Virus record (IMG/VR): IMGVR_UViG_3300048909_000330
Coordinates: 598-64,597 of that record
Strand: one strand, 5' to 3'
Origin: a virus
DNA: 64,000 nt
A program made the translations under genes and the position numbers. Positions 3,522-23,529 of this stretch are shown here, piece after piece (positions within the stretch are counted from its first letter, which is position 1; each line of letters starts with the position of its first letter). The notes below the pieces were generated by a model. The model was not told the origin of the DNA, did not search any database, and worked only from the letters and a program-made list of their open reading frames with translations.

Positions 3522-4834
3522 GTCGGCTCTCCTGTCGATTCGGTGGGAGGGGTTTTAAGAAGAACAATGGCCTTGTGAATTGCATCCGATTCGTCATGAG
3601 CGACGACGTTGCTACCCGCCAATACTCGCAGGAGTTCCAGTTCATGCGCCGTCATCCCGCCCGCATCCACGCTGACCGAATTGCGTAACTCGTCTATGGT
3701 GTCTTGCAAGCGATGAATACACTCCTGCTGCTTAACGGACTGTTCGTTGCCCGCTTTCAAGCCACGATCAAAGGCAGCTTGTACCGCATCCACGCTTACC
3801 GGCTTTGCGGCGGCGAGTTTGCCGGGCGCAGCGGGCAACGGTTGCCAATGGGATGGCGTCCAGCTTGCGCCGTAGACAGTCCAACTGCCGCCGTTGATGC
3901 CGCCTACTTTGATGCGCCAATCATCCGCATGGTCGAACTGAACCGTGACCAGCACGTTTGTATCGCGCGGCGGCTCTTGATCGGCGACAGCGATCCAGCG
4001 GCTCGCCCCACTATCGGCTTTAGGGGTGGCGATCTGGGCGCGCACAAACGCCACTAAGTTGTTAATTGAGAAAACGCGCAAACCTTGTGACCGATGAATG
4101 TCCCGCCCCGAATCATATTTCAGCGAGTTTTCGATAATATCGTCATCCGTCAACGTCGCCTCTTGCGCTGCGGTGGATGGCGCAGCAGTCGACCAGTCGT
4201 GATGCCACATGAACGCGCAGTACGCGGCAACGTCGCGCGGATCGCCTTTCGCAATGTGATTCATCAGGTCGGCGCGGCACTTGTCCTGCCAGTCGTCGGC
4301 GGTCCACGATGCGCCGTATCCGTACTTGCGCTGAGAAGCCAGCAGCTTGTTTGCAAGCGCGCGAGCGAACCGGCGGACCAGTTTGGCCGTGTCCGGGTGC
4401 AGTTCGTCGCTTACCTTGATCGGCAGTTCGTCGGCTGGCGCAGCGGGTTGCGAGGGTGCCGGAGCGGCCTTAATCATTGCGCGCCAGATTTCCTTCTGTG
4501 TTGCGCCGTTGTCCCATTCATGATGAGCGATACCGATCATTTCTCCGGTAGGTTCGATCGGCACCAATGCGTAGCCTTCCATCAGTGGCGGTCGCTTCGC
4601 CAGTTCCGAATACTGCGCAAAGGTCATCGTCACGGGCTCGTCAGGGTGAGCAACAATGCCCCGCACATCCGCACCCCCATCCGGTTCGCTGAAGCCGGTG
4701 ATAGGAGAGGTGCTTTCGAGGTAGGCGAGGATCGCTTCAGATTCGTCAAGGCTGATGCGCACGCCGGTTTCATTGGCTACCGCGTCCTGCAAAGCTTCGA
4801 TGCATGCCTTCTGGCGGTCTGTATAGGTTGTCAT
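3518..4834 (-). CDS. Mosaic Ead/Eaa-like protein with a DUF551-like module
   Basis: HIAKGDPRDVAAYCAFMWHH module; RWIAVADQEP...SHWQPLPAAP module. Confidence 0.7.
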   Translation of the reverse strand: MTTYTDRQKACIEALQDAVANETGVRISLDESEAILAYLESTSPITGFSEPDGGADVRGIVAHPDEPVTMTFAQYSELAKRPPLMEGYALVPIEPTGEMIGIAHHEWDNGATQKEIWRAMIKAAPAPSQPAAPADELPIKVSDELHPDTAKLVRRFARALANKLLASQRKYGYGASWTADDWQDKCRADLMNHIAKGDPRDVAAYCAFMWHHDWSTAAPSTAAQEATLTDDDIIENSLKYDSGRDIHRSQGLRVFSINNLVAFVRAQIATPKADSGASRWIAVADQEPPRDTNVLVTVQFDHADDWRIKVGGINGGSWTVYGASWTPSHWQPLPAAPGKLAAAKPVSVDAVQAAFDRGLKAGNEQSVKQQECIHRLQDTIDELRNSVSVDAGGMTAHELELLRVLAGSNVVAHDESDAIHKAIVLLKTPPTESTGEPT

Positions 4835-4848
4835 GGTGTCCTCTGGGG

Positions 4849-5595
4849 TTAGGCGGTCAACTCGAATTCGGCTATTGCGGCTTCGAGGATTCGTTCGCGC
4901 GCGATCTTGAAATAGTCCTCGTCAATCTCGATACCGATGAATTTCCGGCCGGTGTTCGCGCATGCAACGCCTGTCGTGCCACTACCCATGCAGTTGTCCA
5001 GCACCGTGTCGCCCTCGTTGGTGTACGTGCGAATCAGGTACTCCATCAGGTCGACGGGCTTCTGCGTCGGATGTAGCGCGGATTTCTGCTTGTCACCCGA
5101 GAAGAACAGCACGCTTCTCGGATAGCGTTGCGTCGAGTCGTACGAGGTCTCGCGCTGCTTACCGTAATTCGTTGAATAACTCGATCGCCTGGTCGTTTTA
5201 CGAGCATGCCCATCGGTCATTTGCGGGTTATAGGTCGGCTGCGTCCGGTAGAAAACCAGCGCGTTTTCATGCGCCTTCAGCGGCGCGCGGTTCGCGTTCA
5301 GATGCCCTGTAGCGTTACCCTTTTCCCAGATCCATTCGTATCGCAGATTGGCTAGGTTCGAGGCACCCAGAACCTTATCGAACGGTGTCTGGGCAGTCAG
5401 CACAACGGCACCGCTGCACACGCGGTCGTACTCAGCCCAGATCCGCTGCAGATCAAGCTGCGAATCCCATTTGTTGCGGGTCGTGCCGTACGGCAGATCG
5501 CACAGCACGAGCTGCACACTCTTGTCGTCTAGTCGCGGCAGCACGTCAAAGCAGTCTCCGAAGTGCAGCGTCGCATCTTTTATGATTACCGGCAC
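4849..5595 (-). CDS. DNA N4-cytosine/N6-adenine methyltransferase (beta class), orphan
   Basis: DLPYG (motif IV), HPTQKP and VLDNCMGSGTTG (motif I) in beta order; no cognate endonuclease. Confidence 0.92.
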   Translation of the reverse strand: MPVIIKDATLHFGDCFDVLPRLDDKSVQLVLCDLPYGTTRNKWDSQLDLQRIWAEYDRVCSGAVVLTAQTPFDKVLGASNLANLRYEWIWEKGNATGHLNANRAPLKAHENALVFYRTQPTYNPQMTDGHARKTTRRSSYSTNYGKQRETSYDSTQRYPRSVLFFSGDKQKSALHPTQKPVDLMEYLIRTYTNEGDTVLDNCMGSGTTGVACANTGRKFIGIEIDEDYFKIARERILEAAIAEFELTA

Positions 5596-5629: not shown

Positions 5630-6769
5630 TTAGGCCGTCATTGCTGCGCGGATGAATTCCGCCGCGGCTTCCGCGTTGATCGCGTTGCCGTAGGCGCGCA
5701 GTCGTCCCACTCGCGAGGGAGCCCCATTAACCAGCGGGAATGTGCCGGGTTCAACTGGCCGCCACTTTCCATCCCGGCACAGGAGCCAGTCAGCAGCTCG
5801 CCAGAAGCCGTTAGTCGGGCCGGCTGGTTCGTTATGCACACTTCGACCGTCTTGCGACTGCTGTCCGTGTTTCCCGCGGCGTTGTATCCCCTCTGCGCCG
5901 GCGTGCCCGCCATAGGAGTGGGCCAGCCCGCGAATTGCGCCACATGATTCAGGCTCACCGCCACCTTGCGGCCGTCCGGCGTCTGCCCTGTCGCGCTCAA
6001 GCCCTCGAACGACTGCGAGCCCTTCGAATTTCCAACTGTCGGCGTCGGCCAGCCGGCCAGCGTCGACGCCATGCCCAGCGTCATCCCGAAGCCGTTGTTT
6101 CCGTGACGAGCTGCGCACTCCGCTCGCCGCGCTTCCCACGTCGAGTCGTTGTCGTTCTGCGGCCCCGCGTTCGGTGTCGGCCACGATGCCAGCCACGCCA
6201 CGCGCCCGAGCAATGCATTCAGCGGCACGTTCGCGCACTCGCTGCCGTCTTTGTGATCGCGCGTCGTTGGCGTAGGCCACGAAGAAAGTGCGGTCTCTGA
6301 TGTGCGGCGCACCGACGCCCGCAGACGGGAAAGGGTTCGCGGCGCCGGCGTAATCCACGGCTTCCAGGTCATCGAAAACAAGGTCGATCCAAGGGTCGAC
6401 ATCCTTGCTTGCAACCTGCTCGCCAAAGATGACTGGAGGGCGGCACTCGCTGATGAGGTGGTGCCACGCCGGCCAGAGGTGCCGCTCGTCAGCAAACCCA
6501 GCTCCTTTGCCTGCCTGGGAGAAAGGTTGGCACGGACAGGAACCGGTCCAAACAGGTCGATCATCAGGCCATCCGGCGAGTCGAAGCGCGTACGACCAGA
6601 CACCGATTCCGGCGAAGAAATGGCACTGTGTGTATCCGCGAAGGTCGTCTGGTCGAACATCCTCAATGCTCCGTTCATCAACGTCGCCGGGTGCAATGTG
6701 TCCGGCGGCTATCAGGTTGCGCAGCCACGCTGCGGCGTATGGTTCGATCTCGTTGTAGTAAGCAGCCAT
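5630..6769 (-). CDS. C5-cytosine DNA methyltransferase, alpha-like chain lacking motif IX
   Basis: HFFAGIG (I), GSCPCQPFS (IV), GEQV (VI), [10 protein letters not shown] (VIII), YGNAI (X); start [10 protein letters not shown]. Confidence 0.88.
5638..6660 (-). CDS. Nested +1-frame beta-like MTase chain with four WPTP repeats and a motif IX-like segment
   Basis: 340-codon frame inside the alpha gene; GGAG 8 nt before its ATG; [13 protein letters not shown] resembles motif IX. Confidence 0.75.
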
Positions 6770-6798
6770 GCGAGCACAATTGGCCGAATAGGCGAGGG

Positions 6799-7098
6799 TT
6801 AGGGTTGCGCGGTTGCTTTCGCGATGGCTGCACGCGCACGATGAAATCCACCCTTTCCGCCGAGCCATGGCGTATCGAGGATTTCTTGCAAAGCACCAAT
6901 CAGATCAGGTTCTGCATTCTTGATCTCACCATCGGCCAGCAATTCATCGATCACGTCTTCGTGATATGTCGCCATGTCCGCGCGGCAAATGTCCGTGAAC
7001 TGGGCTTCTACCGTGTCGTGATGGCCGAGCATGTAACCACTGTTGAATGCCCGGATAAGGTCCCTTTTGCTCATGATCTCTATTCCTGTACCGGCCAA
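6799..7098 (-). CDS. Hypothetical phage protein
   Basis: Co-oriented; ends RARAAIAKAT as many phage early proteins do. Confidence 0.6.
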   Translation of the reverse strand: MAGTGIEIMSKRDLIRAFNSGYMLGHHDTVEAQFTDICRADMATYHEDVIDELLADGEIKNAEPDLIGALQEILDTPWLGGKGGFHRARAAIAKATAQP

Positions 7099-19758: not shown

Positions 19759-20649
19759 ATGGAATGGTTCCGCTGGTGGCACGGCACCCTGACCGACCCA
19801 AAGTTTCAGTGGGTCGCGCGCAAGTCCGGCCAACCGTTTACTGCAGTGATCGCCCTTTGGGTTGCGTTGCTCGAAAGAGCCAGCAGTGTGACGCAAGGTG
19901 ACGCGTCTGTGACGCGCGGTGACGTCGCGGGATTTGACTGTGACGACCATGATGTTTTGTTCGGCCTGGAAGATGGTTGCTGCGCTCGCATTCTTGATGC
20001 TTTCGCCGCTAAAGGAATGATCGCGGGCGGCGTCATAACGAACTGGGAAAAGCGTCAGCCAAAGCGGGAGGATTCAAGCGCAGAAAGGACTCGCGCTTAT
20101 CGTGAGCGCAAGGCTAAGGAGTCCTCTGTGACGACTGGTGACGCACCTGTGACGCAAAGTGACGATAAGAAGAGAGAAGATAAGAGTAGAGAAAACCTTG
20201 AGCCTAACGGCTCTGTCGCCAGCGGCGCTGAAGCGCCTTCTGCCGACCTGTTGGGAGCAGAGATCGGAAAGGTAACGGCTGAGACCGGGGAGTCCGACAA
20301 CGCTGCACTGCACTGCCCCATTTCACGGATTGTTAACGCATATCACGAACTCATGCCACTGAACCCCCGCGTGAAGATCATCAACGACAAACGCCGCAAG
20401 TCCATCTCTGCGCGCTGGCGGGAGGCCTCGAAACTCGATTTCGCGCCCTTCGGATACTCGACGGTTCAAGGTGGCGTGGAGGCATGGAGGAAGTTTTTTG
20501 CCGTTTGTGCTGAATCAGATTTTCTGACCGGCAAATCCAAAGCCCAGACTGGTAAGCCCCCTTTCCTGGCCGACATTGACTTTCTGATGTCCCCCGAAGG
20601 ATTCGCGAAGTGTTTCGAAAACAAGTATCACCGCGAGGTTAGCCAATGA
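19759..20649 (+). CDS. Replication initiator (lambda O analogue)
   Basis: MEWFRWWHG...DPKF; contains iterons; precedes the helicase. Confidence 0.85.
   Translation: MEWFRWWHGTLTDPKFQWVARKSGQPFTAVIALWVALLERASSVTQGDASVTRGDVAGFDCDDHDVLFGLEDGCCARILDAFAAKGMIAGGVITNWEKRQPKREDSSAERTRAYRERKAKESSVTTGDAPVTQSDDKKREDKSRENLEPNGSVASGAEAPSADLLGAEIGKVTAETGESDNAALHCPISRIVNAYHELMPLNPRVKIINDKRRKSISARWREASKLDFAPFGYSTVQGGVEAWRKFFAVCAESDFLTGKSKAQTGKPPFLADIDFLMSPEGFAKCFENKYHREVSQ
19888..20192. repeat. Replication-origin iterons inside the initiator gene
   Basis: GTGACG at 19888/19898/19909/19919 and 20128/20138/20149/20159, followed by an A/G-rich tract. Confidence 0.75.
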
Positions 20650-22040
20650 ACGCACCTGACCGCATCCCCGGAAACGGCGGCCTGACCGTCCCTCCGCAGG
20701 CCATCGAGGCCGAGCAGTCGGTGCTAGGTGCCCTTCTGCTGGACAACGACTCTGTTGACCGGATCGCCGAGCTTCGCGCCGACCAGTTTTATCGATACGA
20801 CCATCGCGTCATTTTCGATCACATCACGCGATTGATTCTGGCTGGGCGCCGCGCCGATGTCATTACGACCTTCGAAGCGCTTTGCGCTTCCGGCAAGGAT
20901 GAGCAGGTTGGCGGTTTGAAATATCTGAACGCGTTGGCACAAAACACACCTGGTAGCGCGGGGATCAAGCGTTATGCGGAAATCGTGATCGAGCGCGCAC
21001 AGCTACGAGGCATTCTGTGCGCCGTCGATGAGATTGGCGCGATGGTCCATAACCGCGCCGGCAAGACCGCATCGGAAATCATCGCCGAGGCTCAGGAGCG
21101 TTTCGAGCCGCTGGCCGAGACGCGCAGTTTCGAGCCGAAAGAAGTTGGTCCAGTCCTAACGAGCATCGTTGAAGAAATCGACGCCCGCTACCACGGAGCC
21201 GAATTGCCGGTTGTGTCGACGGGGTTCAGGGACTTGGACGACAAATTGGGCGGCGGTATGCGGGGCGCTGAATTGATCATCGTGGCGGGAAGACCGTCAA
21301 TGGGCAAGACTGCACTGTCGATGTGCGTCGCCGGCCATGTGGCGCAAGGGGGTGGATCGGTGCTGGTCTTCTCGCTCGAGATGTCGGCCAAGTCATTGCA
21401 TCAGCGCAACCTGTCGCGCATCGGTGGGATTCCGCTGGGCCACGTTCTGGACGGCAAGAAGATCACCGATGAAGACTGGCCGCGCCTGACGCACGGGGTG
21501 GCAGTCATGTCTGAAATGCGCATGTACGTCGACGATACCTCTGGTCTTTCGATGTCGGAAATCGCGAGCCGCAGCCGTGCGATCAAGCGCCGTGCTGGCC
21601 TGGATCTGATAGTCGTTGATTACCTCGGCCTGATGACTGGCGGCACCGAAGAGCGGCAAGACCTGAAGATTGCCGGTTATTCGGCCGGTCTTAAGGGCTT
21701 GGCGAAGCAACTGGATATTCCGGTAATCGTGCTGGCCCAGCTTAACCGCGGCGTCGAGCAGCGGCCGAACAAGCGCCCGACGATGGCGGACCTGCGCGAC
21801 TCAGGCGCAATCGAGCAGGACGCCGACCTGATTTTGATGCTCTACCGCGATGAAGTCTACAACCTCGATAGCCCGGACAAGGGAACCGCCGAGCTGATCA
21901 TCGGCAAGCAGCGCAACGGTGAAACCGGCATTGTGCGACTCGCGTTCTTTGGTGAGAAGCAGAAATTTGCGGACATGGCGCCCGGTTATATGCCGGCTCC
22001 TCGGCCGGTGCCCGAGAAAACCCGGCGCGGATTTGAATGA
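20646..22040 (+). CDS. dnaB: DnaB-like replicative helicase
   Basis: EAEQSVLGALL, GRPSMGKT Walker A, IVVDYLGL, QLNR, DLRDSGAIEQDAD. Confidence 0.96.
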   Translation: MNAPDRIPGNGGLTVPPQAIEAEQSVLGALLLDNDSVDRIAELRADQFYRYDHRVIFDHITRLILAGRRADVITTFEALCASGKDEQVGGLKYLNALAQNTPGSAGIKRYAEIVIERAQLRGILCAVDEIGAMVHNRAGKTASEIIAEAQERFEPLAETRSFEPKEVGPVLTSIVEEIDARYHGAELPVVSTGFRDLDDKLGGGMRGAELIIVAGRPSMGKTALSMCVAGHVAQGGGSVLVFSLEMSAKSLHQRNLSRIGGIPLGHVLDGKKITDEDWPRLTHGVAVMSEMRMYVDDTSGLSMSEIASRSRAIKRRAGLDLIVVDYLGLMTGGTEERQDLKIAGYSAGLKGLAKQLDIPVIVLAQLNRGVEQRPNKRPTMADLRDSGAIEQDADLILMLYRDEVYNLDSPDKGTAELIIGKQRNGETGIVRLAFFGEKQKFADMAPGYMPAPRPVPEKTRRGFE

Positions 22041-22219
22041 CCCAAGCCGAAGCCCTCTCCCGCTTCACTCTCGCAGTACGAGACGGCAAGAGCGGCAACT
22101 ACGGTAAGGCGGTTGAAATAGTTGAGGCGGTGCGGAAGAAACACGGTGATGTTGCGGCGGCGATAGCGCGCAAGGAGATTTGGGCATGTATCAACAGCGA
22201 ACGGTGGGATCGGAAGTAA
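22037..22219 (+). CDS. Small hypothetical protein
   Basis: Coupled to the dnaB stop. Confidence 0.6.
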   Translation: MTQAEALSRFTLAVRDGKSGNYGKAVEIVEAVRKKHGDVAAAIARKEIWACINSERWDRK

Positions 22220-22221
22220 CG

Positions 22222-23529
22222 ATGGCGCGTAGGAGTGCTTACAGCGAAATGACATACGGCTCTGTGTGTTCGGGCATCGAAGCCGCTTCATGCGCTTGGC
22301 ATCCGCTCGGGTGGCGCGCTGCCTTTCTGAGCGAGATCGAGCCTTTCCCGTCAGCCGTGCTGGCCCACCACTACCCGACCGTCCCGAACATGGGCGACAT
22401 GACCAAATTCAAGGATTGGCCTGATGCAACTATCGATCTTCTCGTTGGAGGAACCCCCTGCCAAAGCTTCAGCGTCGCTGGACTACGAAAGGGACTGGCT
22501 GATCCGCGTGGCAACCTCATGCTCACCTATCTTGCCATTGCTCAGCGCTTCGCTCCCCGCTGGCTGGTATGGGAAAACGTCCCCGGCGTCCTGTCATCTA
22601 ACGGCGGAAAAGATTTTGGAACCCTCCTCGGAGGGCTGGCAGAACTCGGGTATGGGTTCGCCTACCGCGTTCTTGACGCTCAATACATCCGAGTGGAATC
22701 ACATTCTCGAGCCGTCCCTCAACGACGCCGGCGTGTGTTCGTTGTCGGACATCTTGGAGACTGGCGACGTGCCGCAGCGGTACTTTTTGAGCGCGAAAGC
22801 CTGCTCGGGCATCCTGCGCCGCGCCGCGAAGCGGGGAAAGGAATTGCCCCTACCCTTAGCGCGCGCACTAAAGGCGGTGGCGGACTCGGAACGGACTTCG
22901 AGTGCGACGGGGGATTGATTCCCGGCGTGGCCCGTGCCCTGACGACGAGCAATCAGCGCATCGATGCGGAAACGGAAACGCTGTTGGTAGCCCATTCGCT
23001 TCGCGGCGAAGGATTTGACGCGAGCGAAGACGGGACCGGGCGCGGTACTCCCCTCGTGCCGATCGCATTCGATTGTAAGGCGTCCGGCCAGAACGGATTT
23101 GGCGTGGGCGACATCGCATCCACGATGCGCAGCATGAGCCATTCGAATTCGCATCAGAGCGGCGGCGGTCATCTGGCGGTAGCCCAGCCCTACACGCTCG
23201 CGATCCGTGGTCGCGGCGACAGTCACCAACTCGAATACCGCCAGGACGGCACGGCGAACGCGGTGCTCACGCCCAACGGCGGCCGCGGCGGAATCGGCGT
23301 TGGTGCAGTTGCGACCACATATGCGGTGCGTCGCCTCACGCCGATGGAGTGCGAGCGCTTGCAGGGATTTCCTGACCGCTACACAGATATCCCGTTCCGC
23401 AACAAGCACGCTGCCGACGGCAACCGATACAAGGCCTTGGGTAACTCCATGGCCGTCAACGTGATGTCCTGGATTGGCCGACGCATCCAGCTCGTCGAAT
23501 CTTTGTCGGCACATAAGGAGGCCGCATGA
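22222..23529 (+). CDS. C5-cytosine DNA methyltransferase with a long multi-module variable region
   Basis: SVCSGIEAA (I), GGTPCQSFS (IV), ENVPG (VI), QRRRRVFVV (VIII), RRLTPMECERLQGFPD (IX), YKALGNS (X). Confidence 0.93.
   Translation: MARRSAYSEMTYGSVCSGIEAASCAWHPLGWRAAFLSEIEPFPSAVLAHHYPTVPNMGDMTKFKDWPDATIDLLVGGTPCQSFSVAGLRKGLADPRGNLMLTYLAIAQRFAPRWLVWENVPGVLSSNGGKDFGTLLGGLAELGYGFAYRVLDAQYIRVESHSRAVPQRRRRVFVVGHLGDWRRAAAVLFERESLLGHPAPRREAGKGIAPTLSARTKGGGGLGTDFECDGGLIPGVARALTTSNQRIDAETETLLVAHSLRGEGFDASEDGTGRGTPLVPIAFDCKASGQNGFGVGDIASTMRSMSHSNSHQSGGGHLAVAQPYTLAIRGRGDSHQLEYRQDGTANAVLTPNGGRGGIGVGAVATTYAVRRLTPMECERLQGFPDRYTDIPFRNKHAADGNRYKALGNSMAVNVMSWIGRRIQLVESLSAHKEAA
22424..22918 (+). CDS. Nested +1-frame ORF inside the C5 MTase
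   Basis: AAGGA 8 nt before its ATG; MQLSIF start; SLSDILETGDVPQRYFLSAKACSGILRRA. Confidence 0.65.
   Translation: MQLSIFSLEEPPAKASASLDYERDWLIRVATSCSPILPLLSASLPAGWYGKTSPASCHLTAEKILEPSSEGWQNSGMGSPTAFLTLNTSEWNHILEPSLNDAGVCSLSDILETGDVPQRYFLSAKACSGILRRAAKRGKELPLPLARALKAVADSERTSSATGD

What the first reader, a model, noticed from the sequence alone, without database searches (positions are those of the whole stretch)
22424..22918. Second nested +1-frame protein, starting with a beta-clamp-like motif
Seen: a 164-aa ORF with an AAGGA RBS inside the second C5 MTase. As in the first MTase, it starts just before motif IV and in the +1 frame. It begins MQLSIF and contains LSDILE...RYFLS, the segment that normally follows motif VIII in single-chain C5 MTases. 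The host frame here keeps motif IX, so this is a different split. Established: QL[SD]LF is the DnaN clamp-binding consensus. Inference: the hidden subunit completes the enzyme and may tether it to the replisome, methylating nascent phage DNA; the gene follows dnaB closely.
Basis: partly seen in the sequence, partly recalled or inferred. Interest (0 to 1): 0.75.

Follow-up and report, generated by a model that had tools for sequence, protein, structure and literature searches.

The report
Hidden gene inside phage methyltransferase
A second, 164-residue protein is encoded one base out of step inside this prophage's DNA cytosine methyltransferase gene; selection keeps it in every relative examined, it is predicted to clamp onto the enzyme, and its conserved QLSIF start could be a replisome-docking peptide, which was not tested here.

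Summary
It lies inside a complete C5 methyltransferase (22222-23529, motifs I-X).

It is very probably a real second gene.
- Synonymous sites of the host frame are constrained only across the overlap (0.50 bits against 1.2-1.35 outside).
- Nested-frame dN/dS is 0.54 (controls 1.06 and 0.98).
- All 80 loci picked by host-frame similarity carry it, and 78 keep it open. So do 48 of 49 named bacterial genomes.
- It is also in the +1 frame of the methylases of phages P7, Omega and Pan4.
- It has insertions of its own that read as junk in the host frame.

A complex model supports binding to the host-frame enzyme: ipSAE 0.85 against a best control of 0.00. Residues 1-20 stay free.

A Q-L-[ST]-x-F start is kept in 60-76% of homologues, and Omega has QLDLF. 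Clamp binding was not tested.

The host frame already has every motif, so "completes the enzyme" is not literally right. The closest precedent is M.EcoHK31I, whose beta chain is nested in the alpha gene. This nested protein lacks motif IX and matches no Pfam or NCBIfam family.

The scan has met this nested family before on other DNA.

The parts
22222..23529 (+). Host-frame C5 cytosine DNA methyltransferase, 435 aa, with all ten motifs: I 22261-22290, IV 22453-22473, VI 22573-22587, VIII 22720-22740, IX 23326-23376, X from 23440.
   Evidence: PF00145 E 1e-45 and TIGR00675 E 3e-46; motif positions.
22424..22918 (+). Nested +1-frame gene ('ALT'), 164 aa, 17.5 kDa. The N-terminal half is acidic and the C-terminal helices are basic (pI 10.2).
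   Evidence: ORF. Conservation, synonymous-site constraint and dN/dS. 1711 and 3448 homologous clusters.
22411..22415 (+). AAGGA Shine-Dalgarno-like site, 8 nt before the nested ATG. The same bases encode K-D of the host motif KFKDW.
   Evidence: Read from the sequence. AAGGA/AAGGAG followed by ATG or TTG is kept in nearly all of 80 loci. It is partly forced by the host-frame codons.
22427..22441 (+). QLSIF, codons 2-6 of the nested protein: a clamp-binding-like pentapeptide.
   Evidence: 156 of 261 homologues fit Q[LMIVF][STDNE][LIMFV][FLW] and 199 of 261 fit a looser form; Phe is kept in 83%, although the host codons would equally allow S, Y or C. Omega has QLDLF. Residues 1-17 have pLDDT under 50 and are not in the modelled interface.
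22634..22699 (+). Nested-protein residues about 71-92 (GWQNSGMGSP...TLNTSEW): the hairpin that the model lays against the enzyme's strand 147-152.
   Evidence: Lowest-error contacts are nested 74-78 and 88-92 with enzyme 147-156.
22739..22870 (+). Most constrained part of the nested protein: SLSDILE...RYFLS and the basic helix GILRRAAKRGK...LP..L..AL (residues 106-149).
   Evidence: Nearly invariant columns in alignment A1. pLDDT 94-97. Host-frame third-position entropy falls to 0.17-0.22 bits here.
22762..22800 (+). Host-frame segment WRRAAAVLFERES (residues 181-193), the signature of this enzyme subfamily and part of the modelled docking surface for the nested protein.
   Evidence: Nearly invariant in alignment A2. 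Interface residues 181-186 and 188-197.
20646..22219 (+). Upstream context: a DnaB-type helicase gene (20646-22040) and a coupled 60-aa ORF (22037-22219) that ends 2 nt before the methyltransferase ATG.
   Evidence: ORF list and sequence. The DnaB reading rests on the Walker and helicase motifs visible in the translation; it was not scanned.

Best explanation
The DNA from 22424 to 22918 is read in two frames. Frame 0 gives the catalytic core (motifs IV-VIII) of a complete C5 cytosine methyltransferase. Frame +1 is translated from its own AAGGA-N8-ATG inside the same mRNA and gives a 164-residue protein.

This nested protein is an accessory chain of the enzyme. Its middle part (residues about 20-122) wraps the edge of the catalytic domain: a hairpin adds to the edge strand 147-152. 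It also packs on the subfamily-specific WRRAAAVLFE segment and on motif IX. Two parts stay free for other contacts, probably DNA and perhaps a host protein: the very conserved basic helix (GILRRAAKRGK) and the floppy N-terminal QLSIF tail.

Shown here: the frame is a selected coding frame and a constant companion of this enzyme subfamily. Modelled only: the binding. Inferred: independent initiation, DNA contact and any effect on activity or targeting.
For: 1. Synonymous-site constraint. At conserved host codons the third-position entropy is 0.50 bits in the overlap, against 1.23 and 1.35 bits in the flanks of the same gene. At four-fold sites it is 0.51 against 1.53 and 1.64 (Mann-Whitney p 8e-17). 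The trough spans host residues 61-225, which is the nested ORF.

2. Substitution rates, OLGenie-style. Nested-frame dNN/dNS is 0.54 (bootstrap 0.40-0.69), against 1.06 and 0.98 for mock +1 frames in the flanks. Changes that are synonymous in the host frame but non-synonymous in the nested frame give d 0.33, against 2.0-2.6 in the flanks.

3. Base composition. The GC3 signature moves to the nested frame in the overlap.

4. Prevalence. In a sample picked by host-frame similarity, 80 of 80 loci have the homologue in +1 and 78 of 80 keep it open. It is in +1 in 49 of 49 named genomes, from Burkholderiaceae to Acidobacteria, and open in 48. It is also in +1 in Pan4, Omega, P7, CobraSix and an Oscillospirales phage.

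5. A history of its own. L089 has a conserved PIRVHR..W.W insertion, and L088 and about 15% of representatives have an N-terminal module of the target-recognition type. Both read as low-complexity junk in the host frame.

6. Fused forms. In several lineages the nested protein is fused in frame to the variable region and motifs IX-X (L004/P0052, P0136, P0165, P0172, P0181, P0191, P0202). There it is physically part of the enzyme's second chain.

7. Complex model of enzyme plus nested protein. ipSAE is 0.85 (runs 0.82, 0.85, 0.88) and the best of 3 controls is 0.00. This mark was reached by 58 of 80 solved complexes and 2 of 110 mismatched pairs; those counts hold only roughly here because my own alignments were used. 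The runs agree in at least 58% of contacts, and the partner's pLDDT is at least 64. No like complex is solved by sequence.

8. Fold alone. On its own the protein is only partly ordered (pLDDT 65), as expected for a chain that folds on a partner.
Against: There is no direct evidence of translation: no ribosome profiling or peptides. The host frame has all ten motifs, so the enzyme may work alone. The binding is a model's confidence, not a measurement, and the alignments were my own. Ribosomes translating the host frame would interfere with internal initiation, so the amount made may be low. The SD-like AAGGA is partly forced by the host residues K-D/E. Fold searches give no known fold.
Confidence: 0.6

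Rival explanations
1. The nested protein is an adaptor: its body holds the methyltransferase and its N-terminal QLSIF docks in the hydrophobic pocket of the host beta sliding clamp. New phage DNA would then be methylated at the fork, the bacterial counterpart of DNMT1-PCNA. This adds to the best explanation rather than excluding it.
For: QLSIF fits the bacterial pentapeptide QL(S/D)LF (consensus as given in PMC9690074). The motif is kept in 60-76% of 261 homologues, in two registers relative to the host frame, so the peptide rather than the codons is conserved. Phe is kept in 83%, where the host codons allow F, S, Y or C. Mycobacteriophage Omega has an exact QLDLF. It sits in a disordered tail that the complex model leaves free. 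The gene lies in the replication module, just after dnaB.
Against: Clamp binding was not tested. P7's nested ORF starts after motif IV and lacks the motif. In many lineages the motif is internal, behind an extra module or a MATSR extension. There is no clamp gene in this provirus, and only 1 weak DnaN-like hit in 50 records that carry the nested gene. I found no report of a bacterial or phage C5 methyltransferase that uses a clamp.
Confidence: 0.25
2. The nested protein is real but acts apart from the enzyme. It could be a small DNA-binding regulator, or a host-takeover factor that occupies the clamp pocket, and the methyltransferase gene would only be the place where it was overprinted.
For: The host enzyme is complete without it. 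The basic C-terminal helices have pI 10.2. The N-terminal motif is clamp-like.
Against: It occurs only inside this enzyme subfamily, in every member sampled. It is fused to the enzyme's own C-terminal half in several lineages. It acquires modules of the enzyme's target-recognition type. The complex model supports binding to the enzyme, ipSAE 0.85 against 0.00 for the best control.
Confidence: 0.1
3. The +1 frame is not started on its own but is reached by ribosomal frameshifting from the host frame, giving a truncated or alternative enzyme isoform.
For: Database proteins P0121 and P0182 run from the host frame into the nested frame. A shift after motif VIII would place SLSDILE...RYFLS where canonical enzymes have a similar-looking segment; that likeness is from memory and was not verified.
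Against: The nested N-terminal 100 residues are under selection too. The start codon (ATG or TTG) and spacing are kept. No conserved slippery site was seen at a fixed place. The two chimeras switch frame at different points, as sequencing or mutational frameshifts would.
Confidence: 0.04
4. The frame is not translated. It stays open and looks conserved because of host-frame conservation, base composition or an RNA or DNA-level constraint.
For: About 2% of synonymous reshuffles of this one gene leave the frame open. Parts of the nested sequence are forced by invariant host motifs, for example EEPPAK under GGTPCQ.
Against: The flanks of the same gene serve as controls. They show no synonymous constraint and a mock-frame dN/dS of 1. 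The frame is open in 78-79 of 80 loci at 42-90% identity. In-frame insertions are conserved as protein in the nested frame only.
Confidence: 0.03

Closest known systems
M.EcoHK31I (E. coli HK31, YGGCCR): C5 methyltransferase made of alpha and beta chains
   Same: A second polypeptide is encoded entirely inside the methyltransferase gene in another reading frame and associates with the product of the host frame. There, removing the nested starts by changes silent in alpha abolished methylation (PMC2836561; PMC3404938).
   Different: In M.EcoHK31I alpha lacks motif IX and beta supplies it. Here the host frame has motifs I-X, and the nested protein has no motif IX and matches no Pfam or NCBIfam family. 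This family is very large and spans phages of many phyla.
M.AquI: two-chain C5 methyltransferase (alpha with motifs I-VIII, beta with the distal variable region and IX-X)
   Same: [quoted passage not shown]
   Different: In the window the enzyme is a single chain and the nested product stands alone. In the split relatives the two ORFs overlap by about 490-725 nt.
Clients of the bacterial beta sliding clamp that carry the QL(S/D)LF motif (Pol II, Pol IV, Hda and others), and by analogy DNMT1-PCNA
   Same: A QLSIF, QLSMF, QLTLF or QLDLF pentapeptide in a disordered terminal tail (consensus from PMC9690074).
   Different: Binding was not tested. The motif is missing in P7. No bacterial or phage C5 methyltransferase is reported to use the clamp. 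The DNMT1-PCNA comparison rests on my own knowledge.
Overprinted (overlapping) genes of viruses
   Same: A same-strand +1 overlap, with reduced synonymous change in the older frame and purifying selection on the newer one (the concept as in PMC8227390, listed).
   Different: It is unusually old and widespread for a phage overlap of about 490 nt, and its product appears to bind the protein encoded by the same nucleotides.

Membership tests
Functional overlapping (overprinted) gene | The alternative frame is kept open in divergent relatives more often than chance allows. | tested here: met
   Open in 79 of 80, 48 of 49 and 78 of 80 loci. The chance for one gene is 0.024.
Functional overlapping (overprinted) gene | Synonymous sites of the host frame are constrained only within the overlap. 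| tested here: met
   0.50 bits against 1.23 and 1.35 bits, p 8e-17. The trough matches the ORF limits.
Functional overlapping (overprinted) gene | Purifying selection on the nested frame (dN/dS below 1, with controls). | tested here: met
   dNN/dNS 0.54 (0.40-0.69), against 1.06 and 0.98 in the flanks.
Functional overlapping (overprinted) gene | The product is detected (peptides or ribosome footprints at the start). | not testable with these tools
   No proteomic or ribosome-profiling data could be reached.
M.EcoHK31I-type nested beta chain | The second chain is encoded wholly within the methyltransferase ORF in another frame. | tested here: met
   22424-22918 lies inside 22222-23529, in the +1 frame.
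M.EcoHK31I-type nested beta chain | The nested chain carries motif IX, which the host chain lacks. | tested here: not met
   The host frame has VRRLTPMECERLQGFPD at 23326-23376. The nested protein has no PF00145 match at E up to 1.
M.EcoHK31I-type nested beta chain | The two chains associate and both are needed for methylation. | tested here: inconclusive
   Association is supported only by a model: ipSAE 0.85, best control 0.00, runs agree in at least 58% of contacts, partner pLDDT at least 64. The requirement for activity cannot be tested here.
C5 cytosine methyltransferase (host frame) | Motifs I, IV (PCQ), VI (ENV), VIII (QRR), IX and X (GN) in one chain. | tested here: met
   PF00145 and TIGR00675 matches; motif coordinates.
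Beta-clamp-binding protein (QL[SD]LF clients) | A pentapeptide that fits the consensus. | tested here: met
   QLSIF at residues 2-6. 156 of 261 homologues fit a strict pattern.
Beta-clamp-binding protein (QL[SD]LF clients) | The motif lies in an exposed, disordered terminal region. | tested here: met
   pLDDT under 50 for residues 1-17. The tail is not in the modelled enzyme interface.
Beta-clamp-binding protein (QL[SD]LF clients) | The motif is conserved throughout the family. | tested here: inconclusive
   Kept in 60-76% of homologues and in Omega. Absent from P7's nested ORF, and internal in lineages with N-terminal extensions.
Beta-clamp-binding protein (QL[SD]LF clients) | Physical binding in the clamp's hydrophobic pocket. 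| not tested
   No Pfam hit for the nested protein. The PF00145 alignment stops at the frame switch in the chimeras P0121 and P0182. A profile of A1 finds no solved C5 methyltransferase. That part of PF00145 is poorly conserved, so absence of a hit is weak evidence.

The most novel reading that the evidence does not exclude
The nested protein is a clamp adaptor. It holds the C5 methyltransferase with its body and docks on the host beta sliding clamp with its N-terminal QLSIF peptide, coupling cytosine methylation of phage DNA to the replication fork. That would be a prokaryotic counterpart of DNMT1-PCNA, made from the same nucleotides as the enzyme it tethers.
Probability: 0.22. Interest if true: 0.88.

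Novelty: new variant of a known kind. Interest (0 to 1): 0.72.

Why it matters
One of the commonest phage and prophage DNA methyltransferase subfamilies, including dmt of the P1-type model phage P7 and the methylase of mycobacteriophage Omega, carries a second gene that standard annotation cannot report. Gene callers keep one frame and drop the other. In one 18-kb contig only the nested ORF was called and the enzyme was lost.

If the nested chain tunes activity, specificity or timing, then expressing these enzymes from the annotated ORF alone, or recoding them, could give misleading results. That matters for epigenome tools, for anti-restriction studies and for phage engineering.

It is also a clean, deep case of overprinting in which the new protein seems to bind the old one. 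And it offers a testable route to replication-coupled methylation in bacteria.

Tried and rejected
- **Family scans of the nested protein.** Pfam and NCBIfam gave no family. Only PHROG 16143, labelled 'DNA methyltransferase', matched, at E 3e-7.
- **Solved structures.** Sequence and profile searches of the PDB gave no relative. Foldseek of the stand-alone model against the PDB gave nothing at E up to 0.001; the model's mean pLDDT of 65 is too low for that search to mean much.
- **ESM Atlas.** Only unnamed viral clusters came back.
- **The two nested ORFs of this window.** BLASTP between them found no similarity.
- **Frame-switch chimeras.** Pfam on P0121 and P0182, to see whether the PF00145 alignment runs into LSDILE...RYFLS: it does not.
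- **Clamp genes.** None in the provirus. One weak hit in 50 viral records that carry the nested gene. This says nothing for or against use of the host clamp.
- **Literature.** I found no paper on this nested family or on clamp-bound bacterial or phage C5 methyltransferases. The original M.EcoHK31I paper is not held.
- **Readings rejected.** Chance ORF, a composition artefact, a purely RNA-level constraint, and frameshifting as the main route; the reasons are given under the rival explanations.
Full report
**What is there**

The window is most of a 69.6-kb IMG/VR provirus. Its nearest relatives lie in genomes of Pandoraea, Cupriavidus, Caballeronia, Burkholderia and Paraburkholderia.

The replication module runs from 19759 to about 23996: a 296-aa replication protein, a DnaB-type helicase (20646-22040) and a coupled 60-aa ORF (22037-22219). 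Two bases later comes a C5 cytosine methyltransferase (ATG 22222, stop 23529, 435 aa; PF00145 E 1e-45, TIGR00675 E 3e-46). This host frame has motif I (22261), IV TPCQSFS (22453), VI ENV (22573), VIII QRRRR (22720), IX VRRLTPMECERLQGFPD (23326) and X GNS (23440).

AAGGA lies at 22411-22415, 8 nt before the ATG. The protein begins MQLSIF and contains SLSDILE...RYFLS.

**Is it more than an open frame?**

Four independent lines say yes.

- *Composition.* In the overlap the host frame's GC3 falls from about 0.72 to 0.545. The nested frame's third position carries the GC3 signal instead, at 0.73.
- *Synonymous sites.* I used 71 distinct relatives. At host codons whose amino acid is conserved, the third-position entropy is 0.50 bits inside the overlap. 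In the N- and C-terminal parts of the same gene it is 1.23 and 1.35 bits. At four-fold sites the values are 0.51 against 1.53 and 1.64 (Mann-Whitney p 8e-17). In 15-codon bins the trough begins at host residues 61-75 and ends at 211-225, which matches the nested ORF (host residues 68-232). The minimum, 0.17-0.22 bits, lies under the nested helix GILRRAAKRGK.
- *Substitution classes.* An OLGenie-style count gives nested-frame dNN/dNS of 0.54 (bootstrap 0.40-0.69). Mock +1 frames in the flanks give 1.06 and 0.98. Changes that are silent in the host frame but not in the nested frame are six to eight times rarer in the overlap: d 0.33 against 2.0-2.6.
- *Openness.* Given the host protein and the window's codon usage, one gene leaves this frame open 2.4% of the time. 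Yet it is open for 154-174 codons in 79 of 80 IMG/VR loci found with the nested protein. It is open in 48 of 49 named bacterial genomes.

The least biased test used 80 loci chosen by host-frame similarity alone, at 61-96% identity in the overlapped piece. All 80 have the homologue in +1, and 78 keep at least 130 codons open.

**Breadth**

The word-index search finds 1711 clusters. The exhaustive search finds 3448 representatives at E up to 1e-3, of which 1306 are at E up to 1e-10. Nearly all are unnamed proteins of 150-220 aa.

A tblastn against phage records hits 124 records. In all five that I opened, the match lies in the +1 frame of the annotated methyltransferase:
- Pseudanabaena phage Pan4
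- mycobacteriophage Omega gp127
- P7 dam/dmt
- Enterobacter phage CobraSix
- an Oscillospirales phage

. P7 carries a 165-codon nested ORF and Omega a 159-codon one.

Gene callers take one frame or the other. On one 18-kb contig only the 164-aa ORF was called, in a 1.35-kb gap where the enzyme must lie.

**The nested protein evolves as a protein**

Alignment A1 has indels in loops, a variable tail and an almost invariant C-terminal block, L.SDILE....P.RY.LS.KAC.GILRRA.KRGK.LP..L..AL.

Two kinds of insertion are meaningful only in the nested frame. The first is a conserved PIRVHR..W.W..W.LKT element, as in L089, P0160, P0151 and P0258. The second is an N-terminal module of the enzyme's own target-recognition type (MPVYAFKAGQS...APTLQA...VVA), found in L088, P0123, P0132, P0127, P0261 and others, roughly 15% of the listed representatives. 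In the host frame the same DNA reads as G/R/D-rich or otherwise non-conserved loops.

**Link to the enzyme**

In several unrelated representatives the nested protein is fused in frame to the variable region and motifs IX-X. The host frame then ends after motif VIII. Examples are L004/P0052, P0136, P0165, P0172, P0181, P0191 and P0202. That is an M.AquI-like split with a very long overlap, and in those lineages the nested sequence is part of the enzyme's second chain.

For the window's own pair I ran one complex prediction, with alignments A2 (enzyme) and A1 (nested protein). The result was ipSAE 0.85 (runs 0.82, 0.85, 0.88), with a best of three controls at 0.00. In the tool's calibration this mark was reached by 58 of 80 solved complexes and 2 of 110 mismatched pairs. 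Those counts hold only roughly here because my own alignments were used. The runs agree in at least 58% of contacts, and the partner's pLDDT is at least 64.

The model supports binding; it does not show it. No similar complex is solved as far as sequence searches can tell.

The interface has these parts:
- On the enzyme: residues 121-158 (after ENV, a helix, and the edge strand AYRVLDA), 163-170, 181-204 (the subfamily signature WRRAAAVLFERES), 367-380 (motif IX) and 417-429.
- On the nested protein: residues 21-122.
- The lowest-error contacts pair nested residues 74-78 and 88-92 with enzyme strand 147-156.
- Nested residues 1-20 and the basic helix 129-139 are not in the interface.

Alone, the nested protein folds only in part: mean pLDDT 65, confident helices at 124-161, and a disordered stretch at 1-17. 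This fits a chain that orders on a partner.

**The clamp-like start**

Across 261 homologues with an N-terminal region, 156 fit Q[LMIVF][STDNE][LIMFV][FLW] and 199 fit a looser form. The forms seen include QLSIF, QLSMF, QLTLF, QLTFF, QLTFL and QMSMF.

Two registers occur relative to the host frame (MQLSIF-SL-EE and QLTF-WS-EE). So the peptide is what is kept, not the codons.

Phe at position 6 is kept in 83% of homologues. The host's Val/Leu codon would equally allow F, S, Y or C, and the GC-rich choices would give S or C. Gln likewise needs the rarer GCA codon in the host frame.

Omega's nested protein begins MTFDQLDLF, an exact match to the published QL(S/D)LF consensus (PMC9690074).

Against a core role for the motif:
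- P7's nested ORF starts after motif IV and has no such motif.
- Many lineages place the motif behind an extension.
- The provirus has no clamp gene of its own.
- Only 1 of 50 records that carry the nested gene has even a weak DnaN-like hit.
- I found no paper on clamp use by bacterial or phage C5 methyltransferases.

Clamp binding itself was not tested.

**What it is like, and what it is not**

The closest characterised case is M.EcoHK31I. [quoted passage not shown] Alpha carries motifs I-VIII, X and the target-recognition domain, and beta carries motif IX. Both are needed, and silent removal of the nested starts abolished methylation (PMC2836561; PMC3404938).

The window shares the nested layout and, on the model's evidence, the association. 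It fails the defining split: the host frame has motif IX, and the nested chain has none.

I could not confirm it. Pfam does not match the nested protein. The PF00145 alignment stops at the frame switch in the natural chimeras. A profile of A1 finds no solved methyltransferase.

**Verdict**

The nested frame is a real, selected gene; I put this above 0.9. It most likely makes an accessory chain that binds the enzyme encoded by the same DNA; I put the whole statement at about 0.6. The clamp tether is a live but untested addition, at about 0.2-0.25.

Earlier agents of this scan reached the same reading of this nested family on other genomes (e1-3278247, e1-3293032, e1-3439361, e1-4429084). I re-derived the selection and prevalence tests here independently.

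Noticed in passing
window 5630-6868 (-), nested ORF 5638-6696 (-): The window's first C5 methyltransferase also holds a long +1-frame ORF, 352 aa with WPTP repeats. That ORF has at least 7964 database homologues, and NCBI names some of them 'methyltransferase' (Burkholderia, Caballeronia, Cupriavidus). It has no BLASTP similarity to the 164-aa nested protein.
   Followed up: partly
L004 4001-4864 (P0052); also P0136, P0165, P0172, P0181, P0191, P0202: In these relatives the nested protein is fused in frame to the variable region and motifs IX-X, and the host frame stops after motif VIII. This is a two-chain layout whose ORFs overlap by about 490-725 nt.
   Followed up: partly
L088 2980-3627 and L089 3001-3765: Insertions are conserved as protein only in the nested frame: an N-terminal module of the target-recognition type, and a PIRVHR..W.W element. 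In the host frame they read as junk-like loops before motif IV or after motif VI.
   Followed up: partly
L003 2369-2863 (phage P7 dam/dmt) and L002 1821-2297 (mycobacteriophage Omega gp127): Two well-studied phage types carry the nested ORF unannotated. In P7 it has 165 codons and lacks the QLxxF start. In Omega it has 159 codons and starts MTFDQLDLF.
   Followed up: partly
contig of P0001, locus coordinates 3829-5178: The gene caller reported only the 164-aa nested ORF in a 1.35-kb stretch where the 435-aa methyltransferase should lie. Metagenome catalogues therefore hold thousands of nested-frame 'hypothetical proteins' in place of the enzyme.
   Followed up: no
L221 (G036:C1:4374-4514, -), same viral contig as L072: A 425-aa open frame with a weak match to DnaN domain 3, below the family cut-off (E 2.5e-4, 16 bits), lies about 1.8 kb from the methyltransferase of that phage. 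It was the only such hit among 50 records.
   Followed up: no
window 22037-22219 (+): A 60-aa ORF with no family hit is coupled on both sides. Its ATG overlaps the dnaB stop (ATGA at 22037-22040), and its TAA lies 2 nt before the methyltransferase ATG.
   Followed up: no
window 22840-23330 (+): The host frame's variable region is built of repeated hairpin-like modules (..F....G....[IV]A.T[LM]....G...V[AV]). The same module type turns up at the N-terminus of some nested proteins in other lineages, which suggests modules move between the two frames.
   Followed up: partly
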